Assembly: GCA_016192455.1 (NCBI GenBank)
Contig: JACPUC010000030.1
Span: 62,001 to 126,000 of the forward strand
DNA: 64,000 nt
Source: Candidatus Tectimicrobiota bacterium
GTDB taxonomy: Bacteria; JACPUC01
Reading direction: 5' to 3'
The notes below the pieces were generated by a model. The model was given only the letters and a program-made list of their open reading frames with translations, was not told where the DNA came from and did not search any database. How positions within the stretch are numbered: the stretch's first letter is position 1; every line of letters begins with the position of its first letter. Positions 36,660-58,750 of the stretch are shown one piece after another. The translations under genes and the position numbers were made by a program.

Positions 36660-38205
<1,546 letters not shown>

Positions 38206-38624
38206 TCGCTGGTTGGTAGGTGAAGTGTAGGCCGCGCGCGCCGCAAAATCAAGCACGGAGTGCGGCATGCGGGGCCTCGCCGCGATACCCGGCCAGCGGC
38301 GCATGCTGAGCGGTCGCACGGCGCCGCCGACGCGCCTCGAGTCTTCGGCGGCACGAGACCAGCGAGCGCCGAGGCCCACTGCTTTCTCCCGGCCATCCCC
38401 CCAACACTCGCCCCCCAGCCCCGCGCCGATCTCCCATGGCGGGGTGTCCGCCGTTGCGTTATCTTTAGCAAAACTCGCCGCCAGGACAGGCGGCGAGGTT
38501 CCTGGCGCTCCAACCCGACGACCGCAACGGCGAGTCTCTCAAGGCCGGCGCGGCGGTGGAGGGCTGGCGGTGGCGCGCTGTCCGCGCGCGGCGGAGCCTG
38601 CCGCCGGCGGGGAGGGAACGGGGC

Positions 38625-40655: not shown

Positions 40656-40769
40656 GGGAGGGCGACCATGCCGCGGAGGCGCGTCCGGCGCCCACATTTT
40701 CAGATTTTCTGCTTGCGCGGCGCCTGGGGATGTGCTAAAGGAGGGTCACGCAAGAAAGGAGGTGGTCCG

Positions 40770-40811
40770 ATGGCATTACCGTGTAGGACCTGCGAGGTGA
40801 CTGAGCGGTAG
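40770..40811 (+). other. 13-codon small ORF (MALPCRTCEVTER) in an apparent stand-alone small transcript
   Basis: Preceded by AGAAAGGAGGTGGTCC; followed by a hairpin and a terminator. Confidence 0.5.
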
Positions 40812-40886
40812 CGCTTTGCGCCGCGACTCGGCGAGATTGCAAAGCGCCAGCGCAACAGCGCTATTGCAATCCAATCAGTTTCACCG

Positions 40887-40954
40887 ACCCTGAAAGCGCC
40901 GCGGTAAGGTCCCCGCGGCCGGCTCCGCCGTAAAAGCTTTCAGGGTTCTTTTTT
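40887..40954 (+). terminator. Intrinsic terminator-like structure
   Basis: ACCCTGAAAGC...GCTTTCAGGGT followed by TCTTTTTT. Confidence 0.7.
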
Positions 40955-51013: not shown

Positions 51014-51054
51014 CCGGACGAGACCTCGGCCGGCGGGCTACAGGGAGCGTGGGC

Positions 51055-52119
51055 ATGGATATCTCGGAACTCCTGATGTTTGCCGTCAAGCAGGGCGCTT
51101 CGGACGTTCATCTGAGCTCCGGAGAGCCGCCCATCGTGCGCGTCTCGGGCGACATGAAGCGGGTGAAGGTGCCGGTGCTGACGAAGGAAGAAGTCCACGG
51201 CATGATCTACGACGTCATGAACGATAACCAGCGCAAGGTCTTTGAAGAGATCTACGAGCTGGACTTCTCCATCGATCTCGGCACGGTGGCCCGCTTCCGC
51301 GTCAACGCCTTCCGGCAGCGGCGCGGCGAGGCGGCGGTGTTCCGGCAGATTCCCACCGAAATCCTCAGCATGGAGCAGCTTGGCCTGCCGCCGATCTGCC
51401 GCGAGCTCTGCGACCGCGAGCGCGGCCTCATCCTCTGCACCGGCCCCACCGGCAGCGGCAAGTCCACCACGCTGGCGGCCATGGTCGATTTCATCAACCG
51501 CGAGAAAGCCGGGCACATCCTCACCGTGGAGGACCCCATCGAGTTCGTGCACCAGTCGAAGAACTGCCTCATCAGCCAGCGCGAGCTGGGGCCGCACACG
51601 CACTCCTTCGCCAATGCCCTGAAGAGCGCCCTGCGCGAGGACCCCGATTACATCCTGGTGGGCGAGATGCGCGACCTCGAGACCATTTCGCTGGCCCTCA
51701 CCGCGGCGGAGACCGGCCACCTCGTCTTCGGCACCCTGCACACCAGCAGCGCCCCGAAGACCGTGGACCGCATCATCGACGTCTTCCCCTCGGCGCAGCA
51801 GGCGCAGGTGCGCGCCATGTTTGCCGAGTCGATCGTGGCGGTGATCTCCCAGGCCCTGCTGCGCCGCAAGGAGAAGGGCCGCGTCGGTGCCCAGGAGATC
51901 ATGATCGGCGTGCCGGCGGTGCGCAACCTCATCCGCGAGGGGAAGATTCACCAGATTCCCTCGGCCATTCAGACCGGCCAGAAGTTCGGCATGCAGACGC
52001 TCGAACAGGCGGTGCTGACGCTCTACGAGAAGGGGATCGTCAGCCGGGAGGAGGCCTTGCTCAAGTGCCCCGGCCTCTTCCGCGAAGAGCAGGTGGAGCA
52101 GCGCAAGGCGGTGGCGTAG
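51055..52119 (+). CDS. pilT: Type IV pilus retraction ATPase PilT
   Basis: ASDVHL, GPTGSGKSTT, ALREDPD, GHLVFGTLHT, AVRNLIRE, GMQT. Confidence 0.96.
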   Translation: MDISELLMFAVKQGASDVHLSSGEPPIVRVSGDMKRVKVPVLTKEEVHGMIYDVMNDNQRKVFEEIYELDFSIDLGTVARFRVNAFRQRRGEAAVFRQIPTEILSMEQLGLPPICRELCDRERGLILCTGPTGSGKSTTLAAMVDFINREKAGHILTVEDPIEFVHQSKNCLISQRELGPHTHSFANALKSALREDPDYILVGEMRDLETISLALTAAETGHLVFGTLHTSSAPKTVDRIIDVFPSAQQAQVRAMFAESIVAVISQALLRRKEKGRVGAQEIMIGVPAVRNLIREGKIHQIPSAIQTGQKFGMQTLEQAVLTLYEKGIVSREEALLKCPGLFREEQVEQRKAVA

Positions 52120-52211
52120 CGAACCGGCGCGGGCGGGCGTGAGGCTGGCGGCGCCGGCCGCCGCGGCCGCGAGGGCCGGCACGAACCCTTTGCACGCAGG
52201 GGGACCCTGCA

Positions 52212-53321
52212 ATGACCATCAAGGACCTGTTGAAGATCATGGTGGAGCGCGACGCCTCGGACGTCTACTTGACGGCGGAGGCGCCCCCGATGTACCGCAT
52301 CGACGGCGTCAACCGACCCGCCGGCAAAACGCCGCTCACCGCCCAGATGACCGACGCCCTGGCCGCCTCTGCGATGACTGAAAAGCAGCGAGCCGAGTTC
52401 GACGAGACCATGGAGATGAACCTCGCCCTCTACTACCCCGAGCTGGGGCGCTTCCGCGTCAACATCTTCCGGCAGCGCGGCTGCACCGGCATGGTCATCC
52501 GGCAGATCAAGGTCGATATCGTGACGATGGACCAGCTCAAGCTGCCGCCGATTATCAAAGACGTCATTATGACAAAGCGCGGCCTCATCGTCGTCGTCGG
52601 CGCCACCGGCTCGGGGAAATCGACCTCGCTGGCCGCCATGATCGACTACCGCAACACCCACGAGGCGGGGCACATCATCACCATCGAGGACCCGGTGGAA
52701 TTCGTCCACCCGCATAAGAAATCCGTCGTCACGCAGCGCGAGGTCGGCATGGACACGCACTCCTTCCACGCCGCCCTGAAGAACACCCTGCGCCAGGCGC
52801 CCGACGTCATCCTCATCGGCGAAATCCGCGACACCGAGACCATGGAGGCCGCCATCACCTTCGCCGAGACCGGCCACCTCTGCCTGGGAACGCTGCACTC
52901 GAACAACGCCAACCAGGCGATGGAGCGCATCCTCAACTTCTTCCCCCAGGAGCGCCACGAGCAGATTCTCTTGCAGCTCGCCCTCAACCTGCGCTCCATC
53001 ATCTCGCAGCGCCTGGTGCGCACGGTGGACGGCAAGCGCGCCGCCGCCGTGGAGATTCTCCTCAACACGCCGCGCATGGCCGACCTGATCATGAAGGGAG
53101 AGATCGAGAGCCTGAAGGACACCATGGAGCACAGCATTCAGGACGGCATGCAGACCTTCGACCAGGCGCTCTTCAAGCTCTACCAGGAGGGCCGCATCTC
53201 CTACGAGGACGCCCTGGCCAATGCCGACAGCGCCAACAACCTGCGTCTGAAGATCAAGATGGCGAAGCTCGACGAAGGCGCCGAAGAGGAGGTGGAGGAG
53301 AAGAGCTCGTTGAAGATTTGA
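52212..53321 (+). CDS. pilU: PilU twitching-motility ATPase
   Basis: GATGSGKSTS, LRQAPDVILIGE, TLHSNNANQA, ADSANNLRL; follows pilT. Confidence 0.93.
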   Translation: MTIKDLLKIMVERDASDVYLTAEAPPMYRIDGVNRPAGKTPLTAQMTDALAASAMTEKQRAEFDETMEMNLALYYPELGRFRVNIFRQRGCTGMVIRQIKVDIVTMDQLKLPPIIKDVIMTKRGLIVVVGATGSGKSTSLAAMIDYRNTHEAGHIITIEDPVEFVHPHKKSVVTQREVGMDTHSFHAALKNTLRQAPDVILIGEIRDTETMEAAITFAETGHLCLGTLHSNNANQAMERILNFFPQERHEQILLQLALNLRSIISQRLVRTVDGKRAAAVEILLNTPRMADLIMKGEIESLKDTMEHSIQDGMQTFDQALFKLYQEGRISYEDALANADSANNLRLKIKMAKLDEGAEEEVEEKSSLKI

Positions 53322-53380
53322 GGGTTTCGCGGCAAGCCTCGGAAGGTTCTGCGGACGGGCCACGTCAGGGATTACTCTAG

Positions 53381-54277
53381 ATGTTGAGAACCCTCGGCAA
53401 GTGGGCTGTTGGATTGTTCGTAGGGATATTAGGGATTCCATTAAATTGGGGGATTGAGTTCTTTTCCAAATTGCGATCCAGGGAAGGGTACGTGCTTTTT
53501 TTCACAATTATCGGTGCATACGTGGCGCTCTATGCGATATTCGTAAGCCAGCACGAACGGCAATTGAATCGTGCGCTGTTTGAACGCCAAGCATTCCTTT
53601 CGATGGTCTCCTCTAACAATCGGGAGATGATTATCACAGCGATGAAAAATTTTGGACCTATCCAATCAATAGAGGTCCGGCAAGAACCATCTCTTTTCAA
53701 GCCATGGACTTGGCTACCGTGGAATTACCTCAAGCCCAATGAAAGCCCCCTCTATCTCTGGGCCCAAACTTTCTTGAACCAATGTGAACCAGGAACCTGC
53801 GGATACACTAAACCTCGTTCAGGTGATAGTTATAGGATTGACCTGCGCCTGGCAAATCTGGAAGGAGCCAACCTGGGCATGAATTGGGTTCTGCGGGCCA
53901 ATTTGAATGGAGCCGACTTACTATGGGCGAAGCTAAGTAAAGCCAATTTGCAAAGAGCCATGTTGCGCGGCGCGCTCATGGGGTCAGTCGACCTGCAGGG
54001 TGCGAATTTACGGTGGGCTGATCTACGCGAAGCTTGCATGGGTTTGGCAACATTGGTGGATACTGACCTGTTCGAAGCAGACCTGCGTAAATCTTCTTTG
54101 CGCTCAGCAGATCTGAAAAGGGCTAATGTAACGAAGGCCGATCTACGTGGTGCCGACCTTTGTTGGGCAAGGAACCTGGCAAATGATCAGATAAAAAGCG
54201 CGAAAACAAACGGCGAAACCTTATTGCCTGGTAATCCACAATGTGTGATAGAGAGGCGTTGCCCACACGCCCCCTAA
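53381..54277 (+). CDS. Membrane-anchored pentapeptide-repeat protein (AT-richer, likely acquired)
   Basis: N-terminal TM segments; A(N/D)LxG/A pentapeptide repeats; abrupt compositional shift. Confidence 0.85.
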   Translation: MLRTLGKWAVGLFVGILGIPLNWGIEFFSKLRSREGYVLFFTIIGAYVALYAIFVSQHERQLNRALFERQAFLSMVSSNNREMIITAMKNFGPIQSIEVRQEPSLFKPWTWLPWNYLKPNESPLYLWAQTFLNQCEPGTCGYTKPRSGDSYRIDLRLANLEGANLGMNWVLRANLNGADLLWAKLSKANLQRAMLRGALMGSVDLQGANLRWADLREACMGLATLVDTDLFEADLRKSSLRSADLKRANVTKADLRGADLCWARNLANDQIKSAKTNGETLLPGNPQCVIERRCPHAP

Positions 54278-54477
54278 AACTTTTGAACCATCTGAGTTTC
54301 AGGTTCTCTCTGCAGGATGCTGGTGCAAGTGGTGGGTTCCACTTAAAAACGAAGAGCCAGCACAATAACTGGGAATTATACCAGTCCTCTCACCACTAAG
54401 AATCTCCTTCGACCTGAAGTGTGGAGCATCGAGAATCCCCTGCTGTGCCTGCAAAGTACGTCGCTCCCCCACTCTCC

Positions 54478-55065
54478 CTACTTCACCTCCGCGAGCAATT
54501 TCCTGAACAGCTTCAGCGACTCCTCGCCGTCCCACTGGCGGGGGCCGATGCCCATGCCGACGAGGTCGCCGCGGTGGTCGATGATGAAGGTGGTGGGGGT
54601 GCCCCGCACCATGTAGAGAATCTGCGCCGCCCCCTCCGGGTCGAGGAGGATTGGGAAGGGGATGGCGTGCTTCTTTACGAAGGGGGCCACCGCCGACTTC
54701 CCCTCGCGGTCGATGGCAACGCCCACCAGCACGAACTTGTCGTTCTTCAGGAGCTCCGACAGCTTGATGAGAGAGGCACGCTCTCGCGCGCAGTAGGGTC
54801 ACCAGGTGGCCCAGAAGTTGAGGAGCATCACCTTGCCCTTGAAGTCGCTCAGCTTCACCGTCTTGTCGTCGAGGTTCGGCAGCGCCACGTCCGGCGCCTG
54901 GATGCCGGGCGGCGCCGGGTGCAGACCGAGCGCGCCCAGCTCCTCCTTGTAGGGGTTCTCCGGAGTCGGCGGGGTCTCGGCGACCGCGCGCCGGCCAAGC
55001 AGGGCGAACGCGAGCAGCACGGCACACGCTACCAGAATGACGTTACGCCGCTGCACTGATGCCAT
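54478..55065 (-). CDS. TlpA/ResA-like redoxin, putative selenoprotein (WATW-U-PYC, TGA 54801-54799)
   Basis: Two ORF-track pieces join in frame to 195 aa: APDVAL...KGKVMLLNFWATW*PYC..E...GTPTTFIID; SECIS-like hairpin 54771-54785. Confidence 0.9.
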
Positions 55066-55316
55066 GAGATGCTCCTTCAACCCCGTTTCGTTCCAACCCG
55101 CCCATACAGGCCCTCGACATCGACTTGCGGCGTGGCGACGCGCGCCGCGCAAGCTTGATTCCTACCGGGCAACGCGGTCAGGCGCTGAGGTATTCCCCCA
55201 CCGCCGGGGCCCCGCCGCGGCAGGGGCCCGCCTCCACCTGGATGCCGCAGCGCGGCGGGCGCGTCTGCCTTCAGGATGAGCCGGCGGGGTCCGGGGCGGC
55301 GCGGTCGCCACGCGGC

Positions 55317-55910
55317 TCAATGCAGGGATTTCGGCCCCACGCGGATCACCGTCATCATGAGGTCGTCCTCGCCGATGCTCTTGATGGTGTGCCGCCAGTT
55401 CGTGGGGACGGTGAACCAGGAACCGGCCGGAACGGCTTTCACGACCTCCCCCTTGGCATCCATCAAAAGCCCCAGGCCCTGCTCGATGTAGCAAATCTCC
55501 GTGGTGCTCATGATCCCCACATTTCCCCCGTTGGGGATGCGCGCCTTGCGGACGGAGAACCAGACGTCATTGCCGAAGTCGACCTTGGCGATGAGCTTCG
55601 CAAAGAACTTCTCTCCCATGCCGGTCGGCTGAAAGGGGAGGGCTTCATCGGGAAGCACGACCTGCTTCTCGAAGCTGCTGATGAGGAGGTCGGGGTCGGG
55701 CACCTTGCCCATCTCCATCGTAGGCATTGGTGGTGTGCGCATCGGTTGCCCGGCGTCGGGTTGCATGCTCTGCATCGGCTGCTGCATCGGCATGGACGAG
55801 GGCGCGCCCGGTTGTCTGCGCGGCATGCTCGGCATTCCCTGCGCCAAGACGCCCGCGGAGCCGAGCCACACCACGAGCATTCCCACCACACTCGCGAGAA
55901 CCCCCCTCAT
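55317..55910 (-). CDS. Exported cupin-domain protein with Met/Gln/Pro-rich N-terminal region
   Basis: Signal peptide; MPSMP..MPMQQPMQSMQ..MRTPPMPTMEM; cupin motif 2 GSWFTVPTNWRH. Confidence 0.75.
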   Translation of the reverse strand: MRGVLASVVGMLVVWLGSAGVLAQGMPSMPRRQPGAPSSMPMQQPMQSMQPDAGQPMRTPPMPTMEMGKVPDPDLLISSFEKQVVLPDEALPFQPTGMGEKFFAKLIAKVDFGNDVWFSVRKARIPNGGNVGIMSTTEICYIEQGLGLLMDAKGEVVKAVPAGSWFTVPTNWRHTIKSIGEDDLMMTVIRVGPKSLH

Positions 55911-55961
55911 GGTCTCCCCTCCTACTGGAGCCACGGGCCGCCGCCGGCCGCGTCGCCTCGG

Positions 55962-56282
55962 TTACTCTCCGGCGGGTTTCTCCGCGGCCCCTCCGGGATC
56001 GCTGGACAGAACGCCGGCCCGGAACCCCACGGACCTGAGGGCGGCGATCATCTGCGCCGCGCCGACGCGGGCTGGGTCGAATGCCACCTCGGCCTTCGCC
56101 TCGCGCAAGCTCACCTGCGCCTTCTCAACTCCGTCGAGCCTCTCCAAGGCTCGTTGAGCGATGATCACTCACGTCCCTCACGTCAGCCCCTCGACGCGCA
56201 GGCTCAGGTTCTCCGCCAGCGCGGCGGCGCTGCCGAGACCGAGGATGCTGGCCGCCAAGAGCAGCGTGACCCAGGTGCGCAT
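55962..56282 (-). CDS. Exported MerP/CopZ-like HMA chaperone, putative double selenoprotein (GLT-U-GT-U)
   Basis: MRTWVTLLLAASILGLGSAAALA-ENLSLRVEGLT*GT*VIIAQRALERLDGVEKAQVSL...; TGA at 56180-56178 and 56171-56169; hairpin 56135-56153. Confidence 0.88.
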
Positions 56283-56284
56283 GC

Positions 56285-56569
56285 TCACTCCTCCCTCTCC
56301 AGGGCGAAGACGCCGTAGGCATGCAGCAGGCGAAACGTCTCGCCGCAGTGCTCGAGGCGGTCGCCCGCGGCGGCCTCATCCGGCAGGGTGAGCATGGTCC
56401 CGCACGCCGGACAGCTCGCGCGCTTGACGATCATGAGGCCGTACCGACCGTGTCGCTCCGAAACTCGGAACAGGAGCCCGGCTCAGTTGGCGCACTCGAA
56501 GCCCTCGCCCGGGCGCGCCCGCGGCCCAAGCTCGACCTCTTGCCCTCAGCCAGGACAGAGCGCCTTCAT
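56285..56569 (-). CDS. Tandem zinc-ribbon protein, putative double selenoprotein (CPG-U ... CAN-U)
   Basis: GGAGG RBS; MKALCPG*GQEVELGPRARPGEGFECAN*AGLLFRVSERHGRYGLMIVKRASCPACGTMLTLPDEAAAGDRLEHCGETFRLLHAYGVFALEREE; fills the gap between grx and HMA genes. Confidence 0.82.
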
Positions 56570-56600
56570 GCCGCCTCCCGATCAGGTGGGTACGTTGAAG

Positions 56601-56834
56601 CTACAGGTGCAGGAGCTGCTTCAGCCGCCCCAGGTCGAAGCCCACGACCACCTCGTCGTCCACTGTGATCACCGGCACGGCAAGCCGACCCGTCTTCGCC
56701 TTCAGCTCGGCGATGGCGCCTTGGTCCGCTTCGACGTTCCGCTCCACGAAGGCGATCTGGTTCTGTGAAAGGAACTCTTTCACCTGTTTGCAGGGCCTTC
56801 ACGTAGGGCTGGTAAAGACCATGACGTTGGGCAT
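56601..56834 (-). CDS. Glutaredoxin/NrdH-like protein, putative selenoprotein (U-RP-C)
   Basis: MPNVMVFTSPT*RPCKQVKEFL...AVPVITVDDEVVVGFD; TGA 56801-56799; hairpin 56765-56783. Confidence 0.92.
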
Positions 56835-56875
56835 CGTTCTCCCTCCCTATGAATTACGGCTGGCGAGGCAGATCC

Positions 56876-57259
56876 TCAGTTCATCGCGCCTTGCAGCAGC
56901 GCGGCGGTTGCGTCCGGGAAGAGATCGAGCGCCAGCGCCGCCAGCAGCGCCAGGGTGGCGCCCAGCAGCATAACGAGGTTGAGGCGCGCCCCGATGAAGC
57001 GGCATGCCACCGCGCGGCAGCGTCGGCGCTCCCTGAAGTATAACGCATACGAGCCAAGAACTCCGAACACGCCGGCTGGCAGGAAGATGGAACGGTACTG
57101 CATCGTCGTGCCCATGAACGCCCCTGTCCCAAGCCCCGTGAGCACGACGAGAAGCGGCAGGACGCAGCAGAGCGAGGCGACGAAGGCCGCCCCTAGGCTC
57201 ACCGCGCCCACTCCGAAAGCGCGCAGGCACTCTCGACCGGCATGCAGGGATACTCTCAT
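56876..57259 (-). CDS. MerT-like mercuric/soft-metal transport protein
   Basis: ASLCCVLPL in TM1, second Cys pair CRAVAC in a loop, three TM segments. Confidence 0.8.
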   Translation of the reverse strand: MRVSLHAGRECLRAFGVGAVSLGAAFVASLCCVLPLLVVLTGLGTGAFMGTTMQYRSIFLPAGVFGVLGSYALYFRERRRCRAVACRFIGARLNLVMLLGATLALLAALALDLFPDATAALLQGAMN

Positions 57260-57439
57260 GAAACGTCCCCTGAACCGGCTTCACAAGCGCAAGACTGGAC
57301 GTCCCGCGTCGCCAGCCGCGTCCACGCCGCGCAGGGTCGCTGCTTGGGGATGACGCCGCGACCGGCGCTGGACCCTGCTGTCAAAGAAAACGATGCGCCG
57401 ACGGGGTTTTATTCGCCCAGCGGCGAAATTTTTCCGCTC

Positions 57440-58750
57440 CTACACCTTGTTCATCTTCAGCTCATCGAGGGGGTACCAGGTATCCCGCCAGGTGATGCCA
57501 TGGTTGCGCAGGGTGACGATGGCCGACCTCCAGAGGATGTAGAGGAAGACGAGGGCGGCGAGTGGAAAACCCAGGCCGTACCAAGGGCGCATGCCGTAGA
57601 ACCTGGCGTTGTCCCAACAGAGCAGGACAAGGCTGAGGAGGATGAGCCCGTTGAGGAGCCGGGTAAGGCCGTCGGTGGCGGCGAGGGCCGCGAACGGCCA
57701 CACATCAACCAGCAGCAGGGCGAGGGTGGAGGCGATGACGACGGAGAGGCGGTAGTCGATGCCGGCGAAGGCGTTCTTCATCAAGCCGTCGATCATCTCG
57801 CGCAGCGAGGTGTACCACTCCACCGCCAGCATCCCCTGGCCGAGGAGCACCTCCTGCCGGAAGCCGGACTTCTTCACCAGCTTGCCCAGCTTCACGTCAT
57901 CATCGGGGCGCATGGCAATGGCCCGGTGCGTGCCGATGGCATCGTAGACGCCGCGCCGCAGCAGGTTGAAGGCGCCGATGCCAAGGTGACAGCGGCTCGC
58001 CGCGTCCCGCGCCTTCCACGGTTTCGTGTAGCTGATGAAGAAGACGCCGAAGGCGGCGGCAAGCCAGTTCAGCAGCACGCCGGGCATGGTGAGGCGCGGG
58101 AAGACGGTGAGGTGATCGAGGCGCTCCCGCAGCAGGAAACGGGTGGCGCGGCGGAGCACGGTCGGTTCCATGACGACATCGGCATCGGTGAAGAGAAGCA
58201 GCTCGCCGCGGGAGTGCAGCGCCCCCTGGTGCAAGGCGTGGTTCTTCCCCAGCCACCCCGGCGGCAGCTCGCTGACATGGAGAACCCGCAGACGTTCCTG
58301 CCGCCGAGCCAGCTCATCCAGAATGGCGCCGGTGCGGTCGGTGGAACGATCGTCGACCGCCAGCACCTCGTAGGCATCGTACTCCTGCGCCAGCACCGAC
58401 AGCAGCGCCTGCCTGAGGTTACGCGCCTCGTTCCGCGCGGCGATGATCACCGACACCGTGGGGGCCGCGCCCGCCACGGCGGCCGAGGTTTTGGCGGCGC
58501 GCGGCGACGCCGTGCTACGAGGCGAAACGTGACGGGATGCCTCCACCGAGGCGCCGGCCGCTGCCGGGAATGGCGAGAGAGGGTGCGCCTCAACCTTCCC
58601 TGCTTCGCCAGGGGCGCCGGGGGGGAGATCACGCAGGAACTGCAAGGTGCGGTTGCCGCGCGCCATCCGCAGCGCGATGCCGAGGCCGAGGACGAGGGTC
58701 GCGAGGGCGAGGGAGAAGAGGATGGGATGACCCAGGGAGAGTGCCGGCAT
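57440..58750 (-). CDS. GT2 family glycosyltransferase, membrane-bound
   Basis: SVIIAARNE, VDDRSTD, GWLGKNHAL, FTDAD, DDVKLG; start uncertain. Confidence 0.9.
   Translation of the reverse strand: MPALSLGHPILFSLALATLVLGLGIALRMARGNRTLQFLRDLPPGAPGEAGKVEAHPLSPFPAAAGASVEASRHVSPRSTASPRAAKTSAAVAGAAPTVSVIIAARNEARNLRQALLSVLAQEYDAYEVLAVDDRSTDRTGAILDELARRQERLRVLHVSELPPGWLGKNHALHQGALHSRGELLLFTDADVVMEPTVLRRATRFLLRERLDHLTVFPRLTMPGVLLNWLAAAFGVFFISYTKPWKARDAASRCHLGIGAFNLLRRGVYDAIGTHRAIAMRPDDDVKLGKLVKKSGFRQEVLLGQGMLAVEWYTSLREMIDGLMKNAFAGIDYRLSVVIASTLALLLVDVWPFAALAATDGLTRLLNGLILLSLVLLCWDNARFYGMRPWYGLGFPLAALVFLYILWRSAIVTLRNHGITWRDTWYPLDELKMNKV

What the first reader, a model, noticed from the sequence alone, without database searches (positions are those of the whole stretch)
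55962..56282. MerP/CopZ-like periplasmic chaperone with a UxxU (double-Sec) metal site
Seen: signal peptide, then LRVEGLT-TGA-GT-TGA-VII..ALERLDGV; both Cys of the HMA G(M/L)TCxxC motif are TGA (positions 35 and 38). One hairpin (CGAGCCT-TGGAG-AGGCTCG, extendable by CTCAA/TTGAG) lies 31 and 22 nt downstream, so one SECIS could serve both codons. UxxU motifs are rare (known in SelL-type proteins). Inference: a di-selenolate metal site or diselenide switch in an exported protein.
Basis: partly seen in the sequence, partly recalled or inferred. Interest (0 to 1): 0.9.

Follow-up and report, generated by a model that had tools for sequence, protein, structure and literature searches.

The report
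Exported two-selenocysteine metal-binding protein gene
This gene of an uncultured groundwater bacterium encodes a secreted metal-binding protein whose two metal-holding cysteines are written as selenocysteine codons; the protein family is already catalogued, so it is a new member sitting in an unusually selenium-rich operon rather than a new kind of thing.

Summary
On the minus strand (56282..55962) lies a 106-codon frame: signal peptide, then an HMA domain whose two metal-ligand positions (35, 38) are TGA. It passes the curated cut-off of NCBIfam NF041115 'UxxU_metal_bind, metal-binding (seleno)protein' (108.5 vs 95 bits). Two reviews list that family as a predicted two-Sec selenoprotein, so the kind is known. 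The genome has selA, selB, selD and tRNA-Sec and uses TGA as its commonest stop. Contigs from three studies carry the same stretch, and one outside the likely source study matches across both TGAs without a difference. A 7-8 bp hairpin built from three rare codons lies 15 nt after the second TGA, the spacing seen at this genome's other Sec codons. The first TGA is 9 nt further away, so whether one hairpin serves both is open. New here: a six-Sec operon of MerT-like protein, glutaredoxin-like UxxC, a LysW-like zinc ribbon with two CxxU knuckles (apparently uncatalogued), the UxxU protein, a Met-rich cupin and a TlpA-like UxxC. Four of these genes, plus a different thioredoxin-like UxxC gene, recur in another phylum beside MerF. 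Function is inferred, not shown.

The parts
55962..56282 (-). UxxU HMA selenoprotein gene (106 codons plus TAA), a member of NCBIfam NF041115
   Evidence: Translation. Pfam HMA 40.9 bits. NF041115 108.5 bits against a cut-off of 95. The whole-genome search reports it with '2 TGA' at 95 bits.
56214..56282 (-). Predicted Sec-type signal peptide (residues 1-23, with A-L-A before E24)
   Evidence: Read from the sequence. L063 and L085 have an equivalent N-terminus ending A-V-A before E. No predictor was run.
56178..56180 (-). First in-frame TGA (U35), at the first Cys position of the HMA CxxC
   Evidence: aligned with Cys in P0162, L059 and L028.
56169..56171 (-). Second in-frame TGA (U38), at the second Cys position of the HMA CxxC
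   Evidence: alignment.
56124..56158 (-). SECIS-like hairpin: core CGAGCCU-UGGAG-AGGCUCG at 56153-56135, with lower stem CUCAA/UUGAG
   Evidence: It starts 15 nt after the second TGA and 24 nt after the first. It is built from rare codons. The core GCCUUGGAGAGGCU is kept in L063 and L085. Background frequency is 0.5-1.6%.
56285..56569 (-). Upstream gene: tandem LysW-like zinc-ribbon protein (94 codons) with CPGU and CANU. TGAs are at 56548-56546 and 56485-56483. Its stop lies 2 nt before the HMA start codon.
   Evidence: Both U align with invariant Cys of L063 and L085. Each TGA has its own hairpin.
56601..56834 (-). Glutaredoxin-like selenoprotein (TURPC; TGA at 56801-56799)
   Evidence: Pfam Glutaredoxin 64.1 bits. 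Hairpin GUGAAAG-AGUUC-CUUUCAC starts 15 nt after the TGA.
56876..57259 (-). MerT-like membrane protein (SLCCVLPLL in the first helix; CRAVAC after the second)
   Evidence: Weak matches only: MerT NF010314 26.5 bits against a cut-off of 150 and Pfam MerT 17 bits against 32.9. Close homologues lie beside the UxxU gene in L063 and L085.
55317..55910 (-). Downstream gene: exported Met-rich protein with a cupin-like C-terminal domain
   Evidence: No Pfam or NCBIfam match. Protein-atlas feature score 0.90 to Cupin_2 clusters; structure TM 0.47-0.51 by query. This is lead-level evidence.
54478..55065 (-). TlpA/ResA-like thiol:disulfide oxidoreductase selenoprotein (WUPYC; TGA at 54801-54799) with an N-terminal membrane anchor or signal
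   Evidence: Pfam AhpC-TSA 96.5 bits and Redoxin 91.7 bits. ResA and TlpA models match below their cut-offs.
54357..54372 (-). Terminator-like hairpin about 105 nt after the TlpA-like stop; possible end of the operon
   Evidence: Two such sites were found in the region and 2.0 are expected by chance, so this is weak.

Best explanation
This is a real gene for an exported, MerP-like HMA-domain protein in which both metal-ligand cysteines are replaced by selenocysteine. It is a member of the already curated family NF041115. SHOWN: the frame, the domain, the two TGAs at the ligand positions, family membership by the curated score, the Sec machinery in the genome, the reproducibility of the TGAs in other assemblies, and a rare-codon hairpin at this genome's usual SECIS distance from the second TGA. 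INFERRED: SelB with Sec-tRNA(Sec) reads both UGAs. The hairpin is placed canonically for UGA2 (stem 15 nt downstream). UGA1, 9 nt further upstream, is served by the same element at a longer distance, as in the genome's other UxxU gene. The Sec translocon exports the pre-protein, and the mature domain offers a di-selenolate site for a soft metal. Hg(II) is favoured by the MerT-like and MerF neighbours; Cu(I) or Ag(I) is the alternative suggested by the Met-rich neighbour. The metal would pass to the Cys-Cys pair of the MerT-like membrane protein encoded in the same operon, and then to the cytoplasmic selenoproteins of the operon (the Grx-like UxxC protein and the zinc ribbon with two CxxU). The periplasmic TlpA-like UxxC protein would keep the easily oxidised Sec pair reduced.
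For: Frame and motif. HMA. NF041115: 108.5 bits against 95. U aligned with Cys of CxxC in homologues. Machinery: selB 366 bits, selA 596 bits, tRNA-Sec 75.5 bits, selD 389 bits (itself with one TGA), all over their cut-offs; ARAGORN tRNA-SeC(tca). TGA is a normal stop here: it ends 426 of 869 long coding-like frames. Not an assembly error: a contig of run X6 (a study other than the likely source) covers 56145-56299 with 0 differences, and an X5 contig (a third study) covers 56147-56355 with no difference listed at the TGAs. The 3 itemised X5 differences inside the gene are all synonymous third-position changes, 1 upstream and 2 downstream of the TGAs. Hairpin; background 1.6% / 0.5%; rare codons CGA 3.2%, UUG 6.1% and AGG 4.2%; the same core in two UxxU genes of another phylum. 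Same geometry in the genome's other UxxU gene, C9:76080-76607 (stem 14 nt after UGA2, 23 nt after UGA1), and in its Grx-like gene (15 nt). Context: an operon with a MerT-like protein and three more selenoprotein genes. A related operon in L063 and L085 includes MerF at 87.4 bits against a cut-off of 50. A CCxxP hydrophobic MerT/MerF-like motif lies within about 3 kb of 20 of 29 Cys-type homologue loci, or 19 of 28 without L100 from the unpublished genome G560.
Against: No expression or protein data exist. The first TGA lies 24 nt from the hairpin stem (loop 31-32 nt away). That is outside the 13-25 nt loop distance I measured at 13 single-Sec genes of this genome, and the only hairpin nearer to it (7 bp, loop UCA, 6 nt downstream) contains the second TGA and has no G in its loop. 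L063 and L085 have an extra hairpin (loop GGUC, 10 nt after UGA1) that the window gene lacks. No Rfam family matched the region at gathering threshold. The MerT-like match is far below its cut-offs. No MerA reaches its cut-off in this 88%-complete genome (best 374.5 against 454.45 bits), and I saw no MerR- or ArsR-like gene among the ORFs read around the operon (no family search run for a regulator), so this is not a canonical mer operon and the metal is unknown. The SNP support rests on 3 sites. Only 3 UxxU genes from 2 lineages were available for the RNA comparison.
Confidence: 0.72

Rival explanations
1. The Sec pair works mainly as a redox centre (a diselenide/diselenol switch or a carrier of a chalcogen such as Se, S or Te) and not as a metal-transfer site. 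The operon would then be a periplasm-to-cytoplasm redox or selenium-trafficking relay.
For: Two of the neighbouring selenoproteins are thioredoxin-fold oxidoreductases: Grx-like UxxC and TlpA-like UxxC. L063 and L085 also carry a thioredoxin-like SPTUGVC gene directly downstream of the UxxU gene. From general chemistry (recalled), a Sec pair in the oxidising periplasm would readily close to a diselenide.
Against: The fold is HMA. Its solved relatives are all metal binders: Cu-ATPase domains, CopZ and MerP. The partner genes MerT-like and, in L063, MerF are metal transporters. Most Cys-type homologue loci (20 of 29) also sit beside a MerT/MerF-like CCxxP membrane motif.
Confidence: 0.15
2. One or both UGAs are read as cysteine by a SECIS-dependent tRNA(ReC)-type tRNA, or the first UGA mostly terminates. 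The cell would then make a C/U, U/C or C/C protein, or mostly a 34-residue peptide.
For: PMC13582414 (passages read) reports tRNA(ReC)-like genes in about 56% of genomes with UXXU hydrogenases and warns that UGA may then be read as Cys. ARAGORN calls a 94-nt 'tRNA-Cys(gca)' at C20:156564-156657. The first UGA has non-canonical spacing to the hairpin.
Against: The 94-nt candidate has mismatched acceptor, D and anticodon stems. No Rfam model, tRNA and tRNA-Sec included, matches that 6.2-kb stretch at E up to 1, and it overlaps long ORFs. It is probably a false call. The canonical tRNA-Sec and SelB are present. The same two-TGA spelling is kept in L063 and L085.
Confidence: 0.07
3. The gene is a decaying pseudogene or an assembly artefact with two chance nonsense codons.
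For: Public protein sets hold only the truncated 68-residue product (P0003).
Against: Both TGAs fall exactly on the two ligand Cys positions. Contigs from other studies reproduce them. The strain differences are synonymous on both sides of the TGAs. A rare-codon hairpin follows them. Two further genomes spell the motif the same way. A curated family model exists for this very spelling.
Confidence: 0.03

Closest known systems
NCBIfam NF041115 'UxxU_metal_bind', metal-binding (seleno)protein. [quoted passage not shown]
   Same: A single HMA domain with both ligand positions as Sec. The window protein scores 108.5 bits against the curated cut-off of 95.
   Different: Nothing in kind; this is a member. 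What differs is the host (the only genome of its phylum in the collection searched) and the operon around it. The family is known only from sequence analysis. I found no experimental paper.
MerP with MerT of mer operons (TIGR02052; PDB 1AFI and 1OSD)
   Same: An exported single HMA domain encoded next to a small membrane protein with a Cys-Cys pair in its first helix and a second Cys pair after the second helix. It probably works like this relay.
   Different: MerP scores 50.1 bits against a cut-off of 92.55. The ligands are Sec, not Cys. No MerR, and no MerA over its cut-off. The MerT match is weak. Selenoprotein partners stand where NmerA/MerA would be.
CopZ and the HMA domains of Cu(I) P-type ATPases (for example PDB 1CPZ and 7XUK)
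   Same: The same fold and loop motif. These are the best sequence matches among solved structures.
   Different: Those are cytoplasmic Cys proteins. The CopZ models score 50-51 bits against cut-offs of 91-95. This protein has a signal peptide and Sec.
Other UxxU selenoproteins: SelL-related and Prx-like redox proteins (NF040769) and UXXU-type Group 4 [NiFeSe] hydrogenases (PMC13582414)
   Same: Two UGAs 9 nt apart are followed by one strong hairpin. That paper raises the same single-SECIS idea. This genome's own Prx-like UxxU gene shows the same spacing.
   Different: The folds and chemistry differ: a thioredoxin fold with redox function, or a Ni ligand in a hydrogenase, against an HMA metal-binding loop.
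UxxU HMA genes of L063 and L085 (genomes G394 and G087, another phylum)
   Same: 42% and 35% identity to the window protein, a signal peptide, UxxU, the same hairpin core, and neighbours MerT-like, Grx-like UxxC and LysW-like zinc ribbon.
   Different: They score 89.1 and 87.4 bits, just under the NF041115 cut-off. They have an additional hairpin after UGA1. Their zinc ribbon is all-Cys. Their operon adds MerF, an ArsR-type regulator and a different thioredoxin-like UxxC gene.

Membership tests
NCBIfam NF041115 UxxU_metal_bind | Whole-protein score at or above the curated cut-off (95 bits) | tested here: met
   108.5 bits, E 1.3e-31, profile positions 1-73 of 74. 95.0 bits when the two stops are left unread in the genome search.
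NCBIfam NF041115 UxxU_metal_bind | Sec (or Cys) at both ligand positions of the HMA loop (UxxU) | tested here: met
   TGA at codons 35 and 38, aligned with CxxC of Cys-type homologues.
Bacterial selenoprotein (any) | The genome encodes SelA, SelB, SelD and tRNA-Sec | tested here: met
   All four are over their cut-offs. ARAGORN finds tRNA-SeC(tca).
Bacterial selenoprotein (any) | A SECIS stem-loop just downstream of each UGA, with G in the apical loop | tested here: inconclusive
   Met for UGA2: a 7-8 bp stem 15 nt downstream with loop UGGAG. For UGA1 the same hairpin is 24 nt away and no separate convincing hairpin exists. No Rfam match at gathering threshold.
Bacterial selenoprotein (any) | Sec is actually inserted | not testable with these tools
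   Needs 75Se labelling or mass spectrometry.
Pfam HMA (PF00403) | Score over the gathering threshold (24.8 bits) | tested here: met
   40.9 bits, residues 28-87 on profile positions 2-61 of 62.
MerP (TIGR02052) | Equivalog score of at least 92.55 bits | tested here: not met
   50.1 bits.
MerP (TIGR02052) | Sits in a mer operon with MerR, MerT and MerA | tested here: not met
   The MerT-like neighbour matches only weakly (26.5 against 150 bits). No MerA over its cut-off anywhere in the genome, which is 88% complete. No regulator gene was seen among the ORFs read around the operon; no family search was run for MerR.
CopZ (NF033795 / NF033794) | Score over the cut-off (91 / 95 bits); cytoplasmic | tested here: not met
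   51 and 50 bits. An N-terminal signal peptide is present.
SelL (UxxU, thioredoxin fold) | Thioredoxin-like fold around the UxxU | tested here: not met
   The domain is HMA, and no thioredoxin-type family is among the matches. The genome's SelL-related UxxU protein is a different gene, C9:76080-76607.

The most novel reading that the evidence does not exclude
The operon 57259..54478 is a selenium-based soft-metal relay with six Sec residues in four proteins. The path would run from the periplasmic UxxU HMA protein to the Cys-Cys pair of the MerT-like protein, and then to a cytoplasmic LysW-like zinc ribbon whose first metal site is Cys2Sec2 (CPGU...CANU) and a Grx-like UxxC protein. A periplasmic TlpA-like UxxC reductase would keep the Sec pair reduced. 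The zinc-ribbon protein would be a selenoprotein family not yet in the curated lists. The closely spaced UGA pair would be decoded from one hairpin at two different distances.
Probability: 0.3. Interest if true: 0.6.

Novelty: new member of a known kind. Interest (0 to 1): 0.38.

Why it matters
The family is catalogued but wholly uncharacterised. Nobody has shown that two UGAs three codons apart are both read as Sec in a bacterium, which metal a di-selenolate HMA site prefers, or how such a site stays reduced outside the cytoplasm. This locus puts all three questions in one short operon together with plausible partners: a transporter, a reductase and cytoplasmic acceptors. It also offers a natural test of SECIS spacing rules, because the hairpin can be destroyed by synonymous recoding. 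Practically, it is another case in which public protein sets hold only a truncated product (68 residues here), so metal-handling selenoproteins are under-counted in groundwater and soil metagenomes.

Tried and rejected
(1) Word-indexed protein search with the full protein found only its own truncated 68-residue form. I had set E at 1e-5, which was too strict. A two-sequence profile at E up to 1 then found 13 entries.

(2) The exhaustive representative search was swamped by multi-HMA proteins: 9134 hits at E up to 1e-3, and apart from the window's own truncated product P0003 the 150 listed gave no close single-domain relative. It was not informative.

(3) Scans of genome contigs and metagenome contigs with the protein each returned one unrelated HMA locus, L057 (the N-terminus of a CopA-type ATPase) and L058.

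(4) Phylum-level searches around G000, G006 and G394 covered only 1, 2 and 3 genomes. The phylum of G050 (167 genomes) has 21 genomes with Cys-type hits and none with TGA (the tally includes the unpublished genome G560).

(5) 'Relatives of G394' turned out to be essentially the same 400-genome sample.

(6) A motif-plus-hairpin scan of the genome for selenoprotein genes gave 2261 candidates and was useless. Adding codon-position GC filters reduced them to 88.

(7) A TGA pair at window 25816 is a gene end followed by another gene, not a selenoprotein.

(8) tRNA(ReC): the ARAGORN candidate is not supported by Rfam.

(9) Sequencing runs: no RNA holder is listed, so nothing can be said about expression.

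(10) Sigma-70 promoter scan: 0 sites in 54200-57700.

(11) A Foldseek search of the zinc-ribbon model gave only LysW at E 8.8e-3.

(12) The 2007 source paper's main text does not contain 'mercuric reductase' or 'UxxU'.

Full report
**What is there**

The finding's coordinates hold a minus-strand gene, with ATG at 56282 and TAA at 55964-55962. Read with TGA=U it gives 106 residues: MRTWVTLLLAASILGLGSAAALA|ENLSLRVEGLTUGTUVIIAQRALERLDGVEKAQV... The TGAs are at 56180-56178 (U35) and 56171-56169 (U38). Pfam places an HMA domain on residues 28-87, at 40.9 bits against a threshold of 24.8. The domain therefore starts upstream of the first TGA and ends downstream of the second. In an alignment with Cys-type homologues the two U fall on the two Cys of G-M-T-C-x-x-C. 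The N-terminus has one Arg, a hydrophobic core and A-L-A before E24. I read this as a Sec-type signal peptide; no predictor was available.

**It is a known family**

NCBIfam NF041115 'UxxU_metal_bind, metal-binding (seleno)protein' (an equivalog model) matches at 108.5 bits, over its curated cut-off of 95. MerP (50.1 against 92.55) and CopZ (50-51 against 91-95) do not reach theirs.

- The review PMC9312934 lists 'Putative mercuric reductase, PRK13748, UxxU' in a table (table passage read).
- Both cite Zhang & Gladyshev 2007 (PMC1976440). Its main text does not contain the term, so the listing is presumably in the supplement, which I could not open.
- 'NF041115' occurs in one paper of the library.
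- I found no experimental work on the family.

Earlier reports of this scan had met the same family several times in Acidobacteriota. I treat those as leads only.

**Is the read-through credible?**

- The genome (4.46 Mb, 31 contigs, 88% complete) has selB (366 bits) and selA (596 bits) side by side. It also has tRNA-Sec (75.5 bits; ARAGORN tRNA-SeC tca) and selD (389 bits, itself with one TGA), all over their cut-offs.
- TGA is otherwise a stop. It ends 426 of 869 long coding-like frames, against 306 for TAG and 137 for TAA, so this is not a TGA-reassigned code.
- The TGAs are not an assembly slip.
  - Contigs of two runs of one study (possibly the source) are identical across the whole stretch.
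  - A contig of run X6, from another study, covers 56145-56299 with no difference.
  - A contig of X5, from a third study, covers 56147-56355 with three differences. One is itemised (56274) and none is listed at the TGAs.
- The three itemised X5 differences inside the gene (codons 3, 83 and 98) are all synonymous third-position changes in this frame, on both sides of the TGAs. This is a small sample.

**The hairpin**

CGAGCCU-UGGAG-AGGCUCG lies at 56153-56135, or 8 bp with loop GGA. Energy alone is unremarkable (z = -1.38). Three other things argue for function.

1. Position. The stem starts 15 nt after UGA2, exactly as in the neighbouring Grx-like gene (7 bp, loop AGUUC, 15 nt). With a crude hairpin enumerator, 13 of the 14 single-Sec genes I examined (the 14th, the Prx gene on C5, gave none) have a stem of 5 bp or more whose loop starts 13-25 nt after the UGA. 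The loops mostly contain GU or GG. Only 1.6% of sampled TGA triplets (175 of 11010) have a hairpin of 7 bp or more at 13-16 nt, and 0.5% (57 of 10909) also have G[GU] in the loop.
2. Codons. The stem is spelled CGA-GCC-UUG-GAG-AGG-CUC. CGA, UUG and AGG are 3.2%, 6.1% and 4.2% of their families in this genome. Their product is about 8e-5 if the choices were independent.
3. Conservation. The two other UxxU HMA genes I could retrieve, L063:1426-1722 (G394) and L085:1492-1788 (G087), keep GCC-UUG-GAG-AGG-CU at the same place. They come from one genus of another phylum and are 42% and 35% identical in protein.

**One SECIS or two?**

UGA1 is 24 nt from the stem, with the loop 31-32 nt away. That is beyond what I saw at single-Sec genes here. 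The only nearer hairpin (UGAGUGA-UCA-UCGCUCA, 6 nt downstream) contains UGA2 and has no G in its loop.

The genome's second UxxU gene is a SelL-related or Prx-like protein at C9:76080-76607. It shows the same picture: one 7-bp hairpin, 14 nt after UGA2 and 23 nt after UGA1.

L063 and L085 have an additional hairpin, CCGUCUU-GGUC-AAG(G/A)CGG, 10 nt after UGA1. A G-to-A change between the two genes turns a U-G pair into U-A.

So the lineages may differ, and for the window gene a single element serving both codons is the simplest reading. PMC13582414 raises the same idea for UXXU hydrogenases. It also warns that tRNA(ReC) could insert Cys (passages read). Here the only candidate for such a tRNA is a poor ARAGORN call without Rfam support, lying inside ORFs.

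**Surroundings**

All genes are on the minus strand and closely spaced.

| Gene | Coordinates | Key features | Evidence |
|---|---|---|---|
| MerT-like protein | 57259..56876 | SLCCVLPLL and CRAVAC | Weak MerT matches |
| Glutaredoxin-like protein | 56834..56601 | TURPC | Pfam Glutaredoxin 64.1 bits |
| LysW-like tandem zinc ribbon | 56569..56285 | CPGU and CANU | See next section |
| UxxU HMA gene | 56282..55962 | Starts 2 nt after the ribbon's stop | |
| Met-rich cupin-like exported protein | 55910..55317 | No family match | Atlas lead |
| TlpA/ResA-like protein | 55065..54478 | WUPYC, after a 254-nt gap | AhpC-TSA 96.5 bits |

That makes four selenoprotein genes with six Sec codons in 2.8 kb.

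L063 and L085 repeat the module: MerF (87.4 bits against a cut-off of 50), zinc ribbon, Grx-like UxxC, MerT-like CCVLPL, UxxU HMA and a thioredoxin-like SPTUGVC gene. An ArsR-type regulator lies beside it.

Among Cys-type loci from other genomes, 20 of 29 carry a hydrophobic ...CCxxP... MerT/MerF-like motif within about 3 kb. The count is 19 of 28 without L100 of the unpublished genome G560.

No MerA reaches its cut-off in this genome. The best hit, at C22:15159-16484, scores 374.5 against 454.45 bits and has CVNSGU in place of the redox-active Cys pair.

**The zinc-ribbon gene**

Gene callers see only its last 49 codons. Read from ATG 56569, after a GGGAGG box, it has CPGU and CANU. L063 and L085 have invariant CPGC and CDVC at these positions, at 43% and 41% identity.

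Each TGA has its own hairpin, for example UGUUCCG-AGUUU-CGGAGCG 10 nt after the second. An X5 strain difference at codon 9 is synonymous in this frame.

AlphaFold gives a confident all-beta model (pLDDT 91.7). Its only meaningful PDB match is LysW (3vpb_E, probability 1.00, E 8.8e-3).

It matches no selenoprotein model of NCBIfam at E up to 0.1. The 18 database relatives are Cys forms or shorter entries. My searches for 'selenoprotein / zinc ribbon / CxxU' and for 'LysW / selenocysteine' returned nothing relevant.

**How common is the UxxU gene?**

In a 401-genome sample of diverse families, three genomes have a two-TGA hit: G000, G394 and G087. The window genome is the only one of its phylum in the collection.

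Nine 53-54-residue database proteins begin 'MVKTALERLDGV...' or 'MVVKTVLERLDGV...', just after the UxxU position. I read them as truncated calls of L063-like genes, but their DNA could not be fetched.

**Verdict**

What is new is a member from an isolated lineage, the six-Sec operon, a probably uncatalogued Cys2Sec2 zinc-ribbon selenoprotein, and a clear geometric statement of the two-UGA, one-hairpin problem. The metal, the relay and the decoding mechanism are inferences.

Noticed in passing
window 56285-56569 (-): A tandem LysW-like zinc-ribbon gene. Gene callers see only its last 49 codons. Read from ATG 56569 it has CPGU and CANU where two homologues have CPGC and CDVC, and each TGA has its own hairpin. 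It matches no curated selenoprotein model and may be an uncatalogued selenoprotein family with a Cys2Sec2 site.
   Followed up: partly
window 56601-56834 (-) and 54478-55065 (-): Two more selenoprotein genes lie in the same operon: a glutaredoxin-like protein with TURPC and a TlpA/ResA-like protein with WUPYC. Both belong to known UxxC types.
   Followed up: partly
window 55317-55910 (-): An exported protein with a Met-rich stretch (about 14 Met in 45 residues) and a cupin-like C-terminal domain. It has no Pfam or NCBIfam match. It hints at Cu(I)/Ag(I) handling.
   Followed up: partly
G000, other contigs (C1, C3, C5, C7, C9, C22, C23, C25, C30, C31): The genome is selenoprotein-rich. Nine of the 10 further TGA-containing ORFs tested match NCBIfam families whose names fit known selenoprotein types (all but GrdA and one AhpD-like protein below the equivalog cut-offs): GrdA, PrdB-like, deiodinase-like, Prx TxxU, two AhpD-like CxxU, two Prx-like UxxC, and one SelL-related UxxU at C9:76080-76607. 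A DUF3179-like WUPLC ORF and three more AhpD-like CxxU ORFs were seen by motif only.
   Followed up: partly
G000:C22:15159-16484 (+): A MerA-like flavoprotein disulfide reductase (374.5 bits, below the MerA cut-off) has GGSCVNSGU: Sec stands in place of the second redox-active Cys. There is no C-terminal Cys pair.
   Followed up: no
G000:C20:156564-156657 (-): ARAGORN calls a 94-nt 'tRNA-Cys(gca)'. Its stems are poor, no Rfam model matches and it lies inside ORFs, so it is probably a false call. It matters because tRNA(ReC) would change how UGA is read.
   Followed up: yes
window 54788-54884: Metagenome contigs pile up here (summed depth 2234 against about 30 elsewhere in run X1) with many variant letters. 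The stretch around the WATWUPYC motif of the TlpA-like gene is shared at 80% or more by many other organisms in groundwater and soil.
   Followed up: no
L029 (G006:C264:2210-2410, -): Another genome carries an HMA protein with one Sec (GGMFUPLC, a UxxC form). It scores 80.3 bits on NF041115, below the cut-off.
   Followed up: no
window 38098-38209 (-) and 40748-40953 (+): A TPP riboswitch (67.5 bits) and a match to the actinobacterial sRNA family Ms_IGR-5 (52.3 bits against a threshold of 45). The latter is unexpected in a genome that stands alone in its phylum.
   Followed up: no
window 51049-54277 (+): By eye, two PilT/PilU-like ATPase genes and a pentapeptide-repeat protein lie next to the operon's downstream end on the opposite strand. 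These names are recalled from the sequence and were not tested.
   Followed up: no
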